Shown: piece after piece, positions 2 through 20,774 of the stretch
How positions within the stretch are numbered: position 1 is the stretch's first letter
Layout of the letters: each line of letters begins with the position of its first letter
Source of the DNA: a virus
Lineage: Duplodnaviria; Caudoviricetes
Strand: one strand, 5' to 3'
DNA length: 64,000 nucleotides
Virus record (IMG/VR): IMGVR_UViG_3300003541_000003
Location: 3,297 to 67,296 of that record
Position numbers and translations under genes: made by a program
Notes under the pieces: generated by a model
What the model saw: the letters and a program-made list of their open reading frames with translations, nothing else
What the model was told of the DNA's origin: nothing
The model's database searches: none

Positions 2-835
2 CCCCAATTTGGTTTCAGTAGAGACTTACGCACAAACAAGCTCTCACCTTTCCATAGCCGTGAGGCTCTTTCTATCGCTATGGAATTGGCAGATTACCTA
101 CAACCAGATGTATCGGTGTGGCTCGGAGATGTGAATGACTTTACCATGTGGACGGATAAATTCGTCAGGAATCCTGAGTATTACTTTACCGTCCAGCCAG
201 CCCTCATTGAAGCGGCATGGGTCATAAATCAGATTCATGCGCTCTCTAGTGAGTCTGTGGTGATTGAGGGAAATCACGACCAGAGACCACAGATTGCCAT
301 GACCACACATTTGCTGGATGCGTATAACCTACGACCAGCAGACAACATTGATGCAGAGGCAGTTTTATCGGTGGACAACTTGCTGGGGTTGAATCGGATG
401 GGGGTAAAGTATATCGGGGATTGGCAGAACGCAAATTATCATCTCAATAAAAATCTACAATGCACACATGGCAATATCGCTCGTGGTGGTACGCTGGCAA
501 CGGCAAGAGCCATGCTCGACAATCAGGCTATCTCTACCATTTTTGGACACATTCACCGTACCGAGATGGCAAGCAAGACGCTTGTAAATGGAGGCACTAA
601 GACGGTTACGGCTTTCTGCCCAGGGTGTTTATGTAAAACTGATGGAAGTGTTCCTGGCTCGAACAGAGAGGTTCAATGGCAACAGGGTCTCGCTGTGGTC
701 TACTATACAGACGAGGCTTACTCGATTGTGCCATTGCAGATTGAGAATGACACGGTGTTATTCGATGGGATTTTCTTCAAGGCGCATGACTACATGCCAG
801 AACTTAAGAAGTCAACTACTTGGGAGAATTGGTAA
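2..835 (+). CDS. Calcineurin-like metallophosphoesterase (5' end outside window)
   Basis: Frame is open from base 2 (PQFGF...). Motifs GDVND, GNHD, THG, FGHIHR. Confidence 0.85.
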   Translation, partial: PQFGFSRDLRTNKLSPFHSREALSIAMELADYLQPDVSVWLGDVNDFTMWTDKFVRNPEYYFTVQPALIEAAWVINQIHALSSESVVIEGNHDQRPQIAMTTHLLDAYNLRPADNIDAEAVLSVDNLLGLNRMGVKYIGDWQNANYHLNKNLQCTHGNIARGGTLATARAMLDNQAISTIFGHIHRTEMASKTLVNGGTKTVTAFCPGCLCKTDGSVPGSNREVQWQQGLAVVYYTDEAYSIVPLQIENDTVLFDGIFFKAHDYMPELKKSTTWENW

Positions 836-18374: not shown

Positions 18375-18562
18375 CTTATTTTTCTCCTTTCGTAAAATGC
18401 CATTCAAGGCGTGATATGTGGGGTGCAGGGGTGGTAAATGTACGGAGTTTCCTCTTTCCGTAGGGGCATTCATTAACTCTACTGGAAGTCTTAGGAATTC
18501 TCCATTACGCAATAAATTTATCCCTTACAAATTACCCTGCACCCCAAGGGATAGTGCGTATT

Positions 18563-18641
18563 TGGGAAAAGTAGGACTCGAACCTACACCGCTATTTCAA
18601 ACGGGGGATTATTCCTGCGCTACCATTACGCCATTTTCCCA
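18563..18641 (-). ncRNA. tRNA-like RNA with truncated anticodon arm and long variable arm
   Basis: GGGAAAA/TTTTCCC; D arm GCG-TAATGGTAG-CGC; GGA-ATAA-TCC mini hairpin; CCGTT/AGCGG arm; T arm GTAGG-TTCGAGT-CCTAC. Confidence 0.7.
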
Positions 18642-18662
18642 TTTCGACATTTTCATGTCTAG

Positions 18663-18736
18663 TGCGCCTAGCTGGACTCGAACCAGCAACCTAAGGATTA
18701 GAAGTCCTTTGCTCTATCCTGTTGAGCTACAAGCGC
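18663..18736 (-). tRNA. tRNA-Arg (anticodon UCU)
   Basis: Full cloverleaf: GCGCTTG/TAGGCGC, GCTC/GAGC, AAGGA-CTTCTAA-TCCTT, GCTGG-TTCGAGT-CCAGC. CCA is not encoded. Confidence 0.95.
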
Positions 18737-18895: not shown

Positions 18896-18923
18896 ATTAT
18901 ACACTATACTAGCTACTTGTCAA
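18896..18923 (-). promoter_or_regulatory. Sigma70-type promoter TTGACA-N16-TATAAT driving the RNA cluster
   Basis: Both consensus hexamers are exact. Confidence 0.8.
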
Positions 18924-19071
18924 GGGGCAACTTTGTGCCTTTGCCCCGACACTTTGGGCAAGTCCTACGTTCTGCGGTTTCCTCATTATGAGGATAGACC
19001 GTTACCCAGCCCTTACCATGACATTCGTTACAACGATTCTTCCAATTATTTTTTGTGCGTTGTTTACACAT
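18913..19071 (-). CDS. Small DnaJ-type zinc-finger protein (52 aa)
   Basis: Hand translated: CNECHGKG...CPKCRGKG. Overlaps the upstream stop. Confidence 0.7.
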   Translation of the reverse strand: MCKQRTKNNWKNRCNECHGKGWVTVYPHNEETAERRTCPKCRGKGTKLPLDK

Positions 19072-19656: not shown

Positions 19657-19876
19657 GGTAGATTTCCTCTCCATCCCTGCAAACTGTGTTCATAGGTAAC
19701 TTGTAGATTACGAGGTCATCTTTAAACTCACCCCAATTGTAGGGCATTCCGCAATCCTCGCAATGTTTCTTCCATGCCTTGCTGAACAGGATACGCAAGG
19801 CAGAAGGATTCTTTGCCACTCCAACGAAGGAGAAACTGCGTGTTTCCAAAACTCCGAGACAAGTTGTATCAGCCAT
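19649..19876 (-). CDS. Hypothetical protein with CxxC
   Basis: HCEDCG; coupled to the methyltransferase. Confidence 0.6.
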   Translation of the reverse strand: MADTTCLGVLETRSFSFVGVAKNPSALRILFSKAWKKHCEDCGMPYNWGEFKDDLVIYKLPMNTVCRDGEEIYHA

Positions 19877-20774
19877 TAGCTTTCACTATCCTTTCTCCAA
19901 TCCATTTTGCGACATTTACGGTAACTGCGTTACCGAGTTGCTTGTAGCGTTGCGTGTCCGAGACTCCAGCAGTCCATCCATCGGGAAAGCCCTGCAATCT
20001 CTCACACTCCACAGGGGTTAGTCTACGAACCCCACCAGCCACCACCACAGGCATCCTGCGCTTTTCTGGCATCATCTGACCTTTGGTGAGCATGGCTACA
20101 TCCAGAGTATCTGATATTTGACCACCATCCCAATATCGAATCATTGAATTATTTTCATAAGTGATAGCTCCAGTATCGGGGGTAGGGGCTTGTCCTTTGT
20201 CTTTGCTCTCCGCAGGATTCCCTCCGCACATTTCTTGCTCAAATAATACTTCGCAGGAACGTGCGTTTCCAAGACTTCCGACAATAAAGATTCTTTTACG
20301 TCTCTGGGGGACACCGAAGAATTGAGAGTCAAGCAATCTCCATGATACGCAATACCCGAATTCTTGAAGTGGTTGGATGACCAGTTTGAAATCATGCCCA
20401 TTGTGAATAGAGAGTAGTCTTGGCACGTTCTCAATGACAACCCAGCTTGGTCGAATCTCTCCAATGATTCTGGAAAACTCATGCCAGAGTCCTGAACGAC
20501 TACCAAAAAGTCCTTGCCCGTGTCCAGCCTGAGATATATCTTGACAAGGGAATCCTCCGCAGAGAACGTCAATTTCTCCTGCGGTGAGTTTTGATACGTT
20601 TCTAACGTCATTGTATATTCCTTTCTCAGAGTTTATATTGAAATTATTGAACAGGATTTGCTGGCAATGGGGGTCATTATCACATTGCCATGCAACTTCC
20701 ATGCCAGCTTGCTCAAATCCTAAATCAAATCCACCAATGCCTGTGAACAGAGAACCTACTTTTAGTTTGGTCAT
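19869..20774 (-). CDS. C5-cytosine DNA methyltransferase
   Basis: LFTGIGGFDLG, GGFPCQD, IENV, QRRKRIF, RRLTPVECERLQGFPD, LGNAV. Confidence 0.95.
   Translation of the reverse strand: MTKLKVGSLFTGIGGFDLGFEQAGMEVAWQCDNDPHCQQILFNNFNINSEKGIYNDVRNVSKLTAGEIDVLCGGFPCQDISQAGHGQGLFGSRSGLWHEFSRIIGEIRPSWVVIENVPRLLSIHNGHDFKLVIQPLQEFGYCVSWRLLDSQFFGVPQRRKRIFIVGSLGNARSCEVLFEQEMCGGNPAESKDKGQAPTPDTGAITYENNSMIRYWDGGQISDTLDVAMLTKGQMMPEKRRMPVVVAGGVRRLTPVECERLQGFPDGWTAGVSDTQRYKQLGNAVTVNVAKWIGERIVKANG
20141..20611 (-). CDS. Nested alternative-frame gene inside the C5-MTase (M.EcoHK31I beta-subunit-like)
   Basis: 156 codons open in the +1 frame, with its own GAAAGGA RBS 7 nt upstream. C-terminal SLLSEVLE..VPAKYYLSKKCAEGILRRA..PLP. 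Confidence 0.75.
   Translation of the reverse strand: MTLETYQNSPQEKLTFSAEDSLVKIYLRLDTGKDFLVVVQDSGMSFPESLERFDQAGLSLRTCQDYSLFTMGMISNWSSNHFKNSGIAYHGDCLTLNSSVSPRDVKESLLSEVLETHVPAKYYLSKKCAEGILRRAKTKDKPLPPILELSLMKIIQ

What the first reader, a model, noticed from the sequence alone, without database searches (positions are those of the whole stretch)
20141..20611. Second gene nested in another frame inside the C5-methyltransferase
Seen: a 156-codon same-strand ORF lies wholly inside the MTase gene in the +1 frame, with its own GAAAGGA Shine-Dalgarno 7 nt before the ATG. It ends in SLLSEVLE..VPAKYYLSKKCAEGILRRA..PLP. Known: M.EcoHK31I is a heterodimer whose beta chain is encoded in an alternative frame within the alpha gene. 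Here the main frame still carries an RRLTPVECERLQGFPD motif, so what the nested chain adds (target recognition, regulation) is open.
Basis: partly seen in the sequence, partly recalled or inferred. Interest (0 to 1): 0.7.

Follow-up and report, generated by a model that had tools for sequence, protein, structure and literature searches.

The report
Hidden subunit gene inside phage methylase
A second, unannotated protein is encoded one base out of step inside this phage's DNA cytosine methyltransferase gene; it is kept under selection in nearly all related phage methylases (phage P1 dmt included) and most likely works as a small subunit that clamps onto the enzyme.

Summary
A 156-codon ORF (20141-20611, minus strand) lies in the +1 frame inside a 301-aa C5 methyltransferase gene (19869-20774), with GAAAGGA 7 nt before its ATG.

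It is not a chance frame.
- Synonymous permutation of the methylase codons gives a +1 frame this open in about 1 of 1000 trials.
- The same +1 frame is open for at least 120 codons in 83 of 85 relatives; the +2 frame has a median of 29.
- Downstream of motif VIII the nested frame is twice as conserved as the methylase frame (48% against 24%; 17% expected as a by-product).
- There, third-position wobble follows the nested frame.

The two relatives with a closed +1 frame still carry the module. In one it is fused in frame to the methylase C-terminus.

A complex prediction places nested residues 77-156 against the strand before motif VIII, the target-recognition region and motif IX (score 0.83, best control 0.00).

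My reading is a small beta subunit. It supplies in trans the segment that single-chain enzymes such as E. coli Dcm encode just after motif VIII.

It resembles M.EcoHK31I alpha/beta but is a variant: alpha keeps motif IX and beta lacks it.

This scan has already reported the same hidden gene on at least eight other genomes.

The parts
19869..20774 (-). alpha: C5 cytosine DNA methyltransferase CDS, 301 aa, motifs I, IV, VI, VIII, IX and X all in this frame
   Evidence: ORF. Pfam PF00145, E = 1.8e-72. Motif coordinates. M.HhaI is the best solved relative, 2.9e-36.
20141..20611 (-). beta: nested +1-frame CDS, 156 aa, wholly inside alpha
   Evidence: ORF. Openness P = 0.001. The +1 frame is open in 83/85 relatives. 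114 called homologues of similar length. phrog_16143, E = 4.3e-9.
20619..20625 (-). Shine-Dalgarno-like GAAAGGA, 7 nt upstream of the beta ATG (20609-20611)
   Evidence: Read. In relatives an SD-like word precedes the first ATG of the +1 ORF in 45/71 loci, against 22% for other ATG triplets in the same genes (Fisher P = 4e-13).
20144..20383 (-). beta residues 77-156: the conserved C-terminal module. It holds the invariant KYYLS (20237-20251) and GILRR (20207-20221) and makes nearly all of the predicted interface with alpha (one contact, residue 71, lies outside).
   Evidence: Invariant columns in alignment A2. Interface list. Helices 126-138 and 145-155 with pLDDT above 90.
20141..20279 (-). 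dual-coding tail downstream of motif VIII, where the nested frame is the better-conserved frame and the alpha frame reads as a weakly conserved linker
   Evidence: Pairwise identity is 48% in the nested frame and 24% in the MTase frame, with nulls of 16.6% and 19.5%. The most variable codon position is nested position 3.
20292..20306 (-). alpha motif VIII (QRRKR). The strand just before it (alpha 142-147) is predicted to pair with beta 84-88.
19980..20030 (-). alpha motif IX, predicted to touch beta KYYLS and beta 110-114
20538..20555 (-). alpha motif IV (catalytic PCQ). It overlaps the weakly constrained N-terminal part of beta.

Best explanation
The nested ORF is a genuine overlapping gene. 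It is translated from its own SD and ATG inside the methyltransferase mRNA and encodes a small beta subunit of a two-chain phage C5 cytosine methyltransferase.

Beta residues 1-70 are a poorly constrained, probably disordered leader. Their sequence is largely dictated by alpha motifs IV-VI in the other frame. Residues 77-156 are the functional module. They fold onto alpha by adding a strand to the edge strand that precedes motif VIII, and they pack the KYYLS segment and two basic helices against the target-recognition region and motif IX. In this way beta supplies in trans the piece that single-chain enzymes such as E. coli Dcm encode directly after motif VIII. Alpha cannot encode that piece itself, because it reads the same DNA in the other frame as a linker.

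Shown here: the frame is open, selected and coding-like; it is present in essentially every relative; and it is found fused to methyltransferase parts elsewhere. Inferred: binding to alpha (prediction only), the need for beta in methylation, and the equivalence with the Dcm segment.
For: 1. Openness. 163 stop-free codons against a null of 69 +/- 20, P = 0.001. In relatives the +1 frame across motif VIII has a median of 177 codons against 29 for +2, and is at least 120 codons long in 83/85 loci.
2. Selection. In 53 loci, downstream of motif VIII, nested-frame identity is 48% against 24% for the MTase frame. 16.6% is expected if only the MTase protein were conserved. Nucleotide entropy there peaks at nested codon position 3 (1.60 against 1.13 and 0.93), which is a coding signature of the nested frame.
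3. Start signal. GAAAGGA sits 7 nt before the ATG. SD-like words precede the first ATG in 63% of relatives against a 22% background.
4. Obligate association. The only two relatives with a closed +1 frame still carry the module. L042 has it fused in frame after motif X of a complete MTase. L055 has the gene split by an insertion carrying an HNH endonuclease.
5. Fusions. 1102 longer proteins have beta plus core fused in frame to recognition region, motif IX and motif X. Others have it fused to the N-terminal half, motifs I-VI.
6. Complex prediction. Score 0.83, best of 3 controls 0.00. That mark was reached by 58 of 80 solved complexes and 2 of 110 mismatched pairs; these counts hold only roughly because my own alignments were used. 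The runs agree in at least 78% of contacts, and the partner's pLDDT is at least 56. The interface is beta 77-156 (plus residue 71) with alpha 118-162, 171-181, 211-221 and 234-260, plus alpha 287 and 291.
7. Beta folded alone is disordered except for its last two helices, as expected for a chain that folds on its partner.
8. The best hhalign placement of the beta profile on E. coli Dcm is residues 293-339, immediately after motif VIII. This is weak: P = 0.025, probability 1.9%.
9. Beta's first ~110 residues are homologous to the +1-frame proteins of relatives with the EcoHK31I-like layout (E = 1.4e-14).
Against: - There is no direct evidence of translation: no peptide and no ribosome footprint.
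- Alpha carries all ten canonical motifs and a recognition region with the TL dipeptide, so it could be active alone.
- Part of the sequence conservation and of the type A/type B homology is forced by the overlapping, highly conserved alpha motifs. Upstream of motif VIII the wobble follows the MTase frame, and nested identity is only 34% against a 25.5% null.
- The likeness to the Dcm segment is not statistically secure.
- Beta has no Pfam or PDB relative.
- The complex score is a model's confidence, not a measurement.
Confidence: 0.65

Rival explanations
1. The +1 frame is a non-coding by-product. It stays open and looks conserved only because the overlapping methyltransferase motifs and codon usage constrain the DNA.
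For: Upstream of motif VIII the variability pattern follows the MTase frame, and most of the nested identity there (34%) is expected from the MTase protein alone (25.5%).
Against: Downstream of motif VIII the nested frame is twice as conserved as the MTase frame and nearly three times its by-product expectation, and wobble sits at nested position 3. 83/85 +1 frames are open against a median of 29 codons for +2. Openness in the window has P = 0.001. The same module exists as in-frame domains of other proteins.
Confidence: 0.03
2. Beta is a relic of a split-gene ancestor in which the +1 frame ran on into recognition region, motif IX and motif X. In this fused form it may still be made but is dispensable.
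For: Split forms exist among close relatives: 6 of 61 loci have motif IX in the beta ORF and 10 have it in a third ORF. 1102 long in-frame forms were found. Alpha here has every canonical motif.
Against: 35 of 61 loci share the window's layout. In nearly all relatives the beta frame closes 49-75 codons after motif VIII, and the core is strongly conserved among them. A dispensable relic would accumulate stops. None of the 85 relatives lacks the module altogether.
Confidence: 0.12
3. Beta is an independent protein with another role, for example a regulator of methyltransferase expression or a DNA-binding or anti-defence factor, that merely shares the DNA.
For: The C-terminal helices are basic (Arg/Lys rich) and confidently helical. 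No family annotation constrains its function.
Against: Every fusion partner seen is a methyltransferase part. The complex prediction passes with controls at 0.00. The module is never seen away from a C5 methyltransferase in the loci examined.
Confidence: 0.1
4. The frame is used through programmed ribosomal frameshifting from alpha, giving a chimeric isoform rather than a separate protein.
For: Some relatives have the MTase N-terminal half in frame with the beta core (P0071 type). An earlier scan note reports a homopolymer switch at another locus (not tested here).
Against: A shift after motif VIII would give a product that lacks the recognition region and motifs IX and X. Beta has its own ATG with an SD, and such starts are enriched in relatives. 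The open frame extends about 100 codons upstream of any useful shift site. I saw no obvious slippery heptamer near the beta stop when reading.
Confidence: 0.05

Closest known systems
M.EcoHK31I alpha/beta (E. coli HK31, YGGCCR), as described in PMC2836561, which cites Lee, Kam and Shaw 1995
   Same: Beta is encoded entirely inside the alpha gene, on the same strand, in another frame. Alpha is about 300 aa and beta about 160-180 aa. The N-terminal part of beta is the less important part: in EcoHK31I, deletions of 42-67 residues are tolerated when the chains are tethered, and here residues 1-70 are outside the predicted interface except residue 71.
   Different: In EcoHK31I, alpha has motifs I-VIII, X and the recognition domain, and beta holds motif IX. 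Here alpha keeps motif IX, and beta has no motif-IX box but ends in the KYYLS/GILRR module. I could not obtain the EcoHK31I sequence, so direct homology is untested. Relatives with the EcoHK31I-like layout (type A; 9 loci, none with motif IX in the main frame) are homologous to this beta over its first ~110 residues.
Unannotated +1-frame ORF inside dmt of phage P1 (NC_005856, dmt at 66412-68676)
   Same: A 163-codon +1 ORF crosses motifs IV-VIII of the C5 domain and has the same C-terminal core. The +2 frame there is open for only 30 codons. This is the same family as the window's beta.
   Different: The P1 alpha is a 754-aa bifunctional enzyme. The nested ORF is not annotated in that heavily annotated record. 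No experiment on it is known to me.
Split C5 methyltransferases with overlapping halves (long in-frame forms P0265-P0384); M.AquI alpha/beta, from my own knowledge, as the classic split enzyme
   Same: They contain the same beta leader and core. The enzyme is assembled from more than one polypeptide.
   Different: In the split forms the +1 frame continues through the recognition region and motifs IX and X, so beta is the whole C-terminal half. In the window that half is back in the alpha frame and beta stops after the core.
E. coli Dcm (single chain), segment 293-339 just after motif VIII
   Same: It shows the same order of short features as the beta core, and it is the best hhalign placement of the beta profile on Dcm.
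   Different: In Dcm the segment is in frame, and it lies about 14 residues after motif VIII rather than overlapping it. The similarity is weak (P = 0.025), so homology is not shown.

Membership tests
C5 cytosine DNA methyltransferase (Pfam PF00145) | Profile match over the curated cut-off, with motifs I, IV (PCQ), VI (ENV), VIII, IX and X in one frame | tested here: met
   245 bits against a cut-off of 22. Applies to alpha only.
EcoHK31I-type two-polypeptide C5 methyltransferase | Beta chain encoded wholly within the alpha gene in an alternative frame of the same strand | tested here: met
EcoHK31I-type two-polypeptide C5 methyltransferase | Alpha lacks motif IX and beta carries it | tested here: not met
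   Alpha residues 249-265 are motif IX. Beta has no such box. In type A relatives the box is in the +1 protein (hhalign E = 7.5e-5 to motif IX) and absent from the main frame in 9/9 loci.
EcoHK31I-type two-polypeptide C5 methyltransferase | Both polypeptides are needed for methylation | not testable with these tools
   Only a complex prediction is available.
EcoHK31I-type two-polypeptide C5 methyltransferase | Sequence homology to M.EcoHK31I alpha and beta | not tested
   The 1995 paper is not held. PMC2836561 has no supplement held. No source name pointed to it among the hits.
Nested 'type B' beta family (phrog_16143; alignment A2) | +1-frame ORF across motifs IV-VIII that ends about 55-70 codons after motif VIII, with invariant KYYLS and GILRR | tested here: met
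   phrog_16143, E = 4.3e-9. Invariant columns. The window's +1 frame closes 54 codons after motif VIII, just under the usual range.
Overlapping protein-coding gene (general criteria) | Purifying selection on the second frame beyond what the first frame imposes | tested here: met
Overlapping protein-coding gene (general criteria) | Evidence of translation | not testable with these tools
   Only start-signal enrichment is available.

The most novel reading that the evidence does not exclude
Most phage, plasmid and prophage 'orphan' C5 methyltransferases of this clade, P1 Dmt included, are obligate multi-chain enzymes. A constant adaptor module is written in the +1 frame over the catalytic motifs and bridges the catalytic half to an exchangeable recognition half. 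Dual coding keeps catalytic piece and adaptor inseparable while recognition domains are swapped, and annotated single-gene clones that silence the hidden frame would be inactive or mis-specific.
Probability: 0.4. Interest if true: 0.8.

Novelty: new variant of a known kind. Interest (0 to 1): 0.65.

Why it matters
Long same-strand overlapping genes with proven function are rare in bacteria and phages. This one appears to be present in thousands of methyltransferase genes and is almost never annotated, even in phage P1.

If beta is needed for activity or specificity, three things follow:
- Methylome predictions, REBASE-style assignments and recombinant expression of these enzymes (for example codon-optimised genes, which destroy the second frame) would be systematically misled.
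- It would extend the single EcoHK31I curiosity into a general design principle for mobile C5 methyltransferases.
- It offers a natural two- or three-piece scaffold for engineered split methyltransferases.

Tried and rejected
- **Pfam:** no family for beta, its 29 homologues or the type A betas.
- **PDB by sequence:** nothing for beta alone or as a profile.
- **ESM Atlas:** only unnamed viral clusters.
- **Fold of L042:** folding the natural fusion protein of L042 without an alignment gave pLDDT 30, which is unusable. This spent the second structure job, so I could not compare a fused model with solved methyltransferases.
- **EcoHK31I sequence:** PMC306636 is not held, no supplement is held, and no hit of the type A profile search bore a telling name.
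- **Canonical methyltransferases through the genome search:** not possible, because the window is a virus record and W handles have no relatives.
- **Megablast of window 10000-34000 against phage records:** no match.
- **Literature searches:** searches for the motifs and for overlapping-frame methyltransferases found nothing on this layout.
- **Nearest relative L090:** I hoped to use it for a pairwise substitution test, but its frames are broken in three places, probably by assembly indels, so I dropped it.
- **Programmed frameshifting:** considered and set aside; see the rivals.
- **Sequencing runs:** I did not use sequencing-run tools, because RNA coverage cannot tell the two frames apart.

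Full report
**What is there.**
The window is part of a 67,296-base virus record. On the minus strand, 19869-20774 encodes a 301-aa C5 cytosine methyltransferase (alpha).
- Pfam PF00145 matches at 1.8e-72, and M.HhaI is the best solved relative.
- Motifs I, IV, VI, VIII, IX and X are all in this frame.
- The gene sits in a tightly packed run of small minus-strand ORFs of unknown function.

Inside it, offset by 163 nt (+1 frame), is a 156-codon ORF, 20141-20611 (beta). GAAAGGA lies 7 nt before its ATG.

**Is the frame more than chance?**
- Permuting synonymous codons within the gene gives a longest +1 open run of 69 +/- 20 codons, against 163 observed (P = 0.001). It also predicts 5.2 stops in the nested span, against none observed.
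- I fetched 80 viral loci whose methyltransferase is 33-56% identical, four annotated phage records and two metagenome loci.
- In 85 loci where motifs IV to VIII lie in one frame, the +1 frame across motif VIII is open for a median of 177 codons, against 29 for +2. It reaches at least 120 codons in 83 loci, against 7 for +2.
- tblastn of the window's beta hits the +1 frame of the methyltransferase in 69 of 86 loci.
- In the four annotated phage records the hit also lies in the +1 frame of the annotated methylase gene, and no nested CDS is annotated there.

**Is it selected as protein?**
I used 53 loci that share the window's type of +1 ORF.
- From motif IV to VIII, the methyltransferase frame is 62% identical and the nested frame 34%. 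The nested figure is modestly above the 25.5% expected if only the methyltransferase protein were kept.
- Downstream of motif VIII the picture inverts. The nested frame is 48% identical and the methyltransferase frame 24%, with by-product expectations of 16.6% and 19.5%.
- Nucleotide entropy by codon position says the same. Upstream, the most variable position is methyltransferase position 3. In the tail it is nested position 3 (1.60), while methyltransferase position 3 is the least variable (0.85).
- An SD-like word precedes the first ATG of the +1 ORF in 45 of 71 loci, against 22% for other ATG triplets in the same genes (Fisher P = 4e-13).
- KYYLS and GILRR are invariant in 30 aligned betas.

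I conclude that the nested ORF is a real coding gene. Its functional part is the C-terminal half.

**A family of layouts.**
The relatives fall into groups.
- **Type B (the window's kind).** The +1 ORF ends about 55-70 codons after motif VIII with the KYYLS/GILRR core. Of 61 unique loci:
  - 35 have motif IX in the alpha ORF, as here;
  - 6 have the +1 frame running on through the recognition region and motifs IX and X (a split enzyme);
  - 10 have that half in a third ORF;
  - 10 could not be classified, because of a contig end or a motif-pattern miss.
- **Type A (9 loci).** These have a different, longer +1 protein that ends in a box aligning to motif IX (hhalign E = 7.5e-5). Their main frame lacks motif IX in 9 of 9 loci. 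That is the layout PMC2836561 describes for M.EcoHK31I.
- Type A and type B betas are homologous over their first ~110 residues (E = 1.4e-14). Part of that is forced by the shared alpha motifs.

The databases hold at least 114 beta-sized homologues. They also hold 1102 longer proteins in which beta plus core is fused in frame to the recognition region and motifs IX and X, and at least 4997 type A proteins. Nearly all are unnamed.

**Natural experiments.**
Only two of the 85 loci have a closed +1 frame.
- In L042 the module is instead fused in frame to the C-terminus of a complete methyltransferase, after motif X.
- In L055 the gene is interrupted, between motif VIII and the core, by an insertion that carries an HNH endonuclease.

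Other proteins fuse the core to the N-terminal half, motifs I-VI, while motifs VIII to X continue in the -1 frame (P0071 type). So the module is never lost, and every fusion partner is a methyltransferase part. These are classic 'Rosetta stone' arguments for physical association.

**How it probably works.**
Folded alone, beta is disordered except for two C-terminal helices with pLDDT above 90.

The complex prediction of alpha with beta passes.
- Score 0.83; best of 3 controls 0.00.
- That mark was reached by 58 of 80 solved complexes and 2 of 110 mismatched pairs. These counts hold only roughly because my own alignments were used.
- The runs agree in at least 78% of contacts, and the partner's pLDDT is at least 56.
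- No like complex is solved for beta, so the pass is not memory of such a complex.

Predicted contacts:
- beta 84-88 pair with alpha 142-147, the edge strand before motif VIII;
- beta 110-114 touch alpha P156 and E256;
- KYYLS touches alpha R250 and T253 in motif IX;
- alpha 171-181 and 211-221 (linker and recognition region) are also at the interface;
- beta residues 1-70 are not.

The best placement of the beta profile on E. coli Dcm is residues 293-339, directly after motif VIII. The same order of short features appears there, but the statistics are weak (P = 0.025).

My model is that beta is a small adaptor subunit. It bridges the catalytic domain and the recognition/motif IX domain, and it supplies in trans the segment that single-chain enzymes carry after motif VIII. 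Alpha reads that same DNA in another frame as a poorly conserved linker. The nearest relative (L090) has a different recognition region between conserved flanks, while its beta is 62% identical. This fits a constant module rather than a specificity determinant. Binding, requirement for activity and the Dcm equivalence are all inferred, not shown.

**Phage P1.**
Following a lead from earlier scan notes, I checked dmt of P1 myself. It has a 163-codon +1 ORF with the same core, and its +2 frame is open for only 30 codons. The ORF is absent from the very detailed annotation of NC_005856.

**Known or new.**
The principle, a beta chain in another frame inside alpha, has been known since M.EcoHK31I. 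The window fails one defining feature of that system, because motif IX is in alpha and not in beta. I found no paper that describes this variant, but that search cannot exclude one. PHROGs already holds the family as phrog_16143 under the label 'DNA methyltransferase', so gene callers sometimes pick it up.

This scan has reported the same hidden gene on at least eight other genomes. My tests here are independent of those notes. I rate it a new variant of a known kind.

Noticed in passing
window 18562-18641 (-), next to tRNA-Arg(TCT) at 18662-18736 (-): A second tRNA-like gene. Rfam tRNA scores 47.8 bits, but ARAGORN cannot assign it ('???', two-base anticodon 'cc'). The fold shows a long variable arm and a 3-bp anticodon stem with a 4-nt loop. 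It may be an aberrant or degenerate phage tRNA.
   Followed up: partly
L055:1980-2640: In one relative the methyltransferase and nested gene pair is interrupted, between motif VIII and the beta core, by about 0.6 kb that encodes an HNH homing-endonuclease-like ORF in a third frame. It could be an intron or another mobile insertion. Splicing was not tested.
   Followed up: no
L090:2340-3310: The nearest relative (76-84% nucleotide identity at the two ends of the gene, on a 66.5-kb contig) has a quite different recognition region between the conserved flanks. Its alpha, beta and C-terminal parts lie in three different frames. Indel errors of a long-read assembly are the likely cause, and the gene caller there called beta but not the methyltransferase.
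   Followed up: partly
L057, L059, L067 and about 7 more loci: Three-piece versions. Alpha stops 24-96 codons after motif VIII, beta is nested as usual, and the recognition region with motifs IX and X lies in a separate ORF.
   Followed up: partly
protein P0318: A 482-aa protein in which beta core, recognition region and motifs IX and X are followed in frame by motif I of a methyltransferase. This suggests a permuted gene order, with the C-terminal half ahead of the N-terminal half.
   Followed up: no
window 18913-19071 (-): A 52-aa ORF with two CxxC pairs (zinc-ribbon-like) and a weak match to Q-like antiterminator phrog_127 (2.5e-4), just downstream of the small-ORF cluster that holds the methyltransferase.
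   Followed up: no
window 20771-20774 and 19869-19876: The methyltransferase ATG overlaps the stop of the upstream ORF (ATGA). Its last codons overlap the start of the next ORF by 8 nt. This suggests translational coupling along a run of unknown small genes.
   Followed up: no
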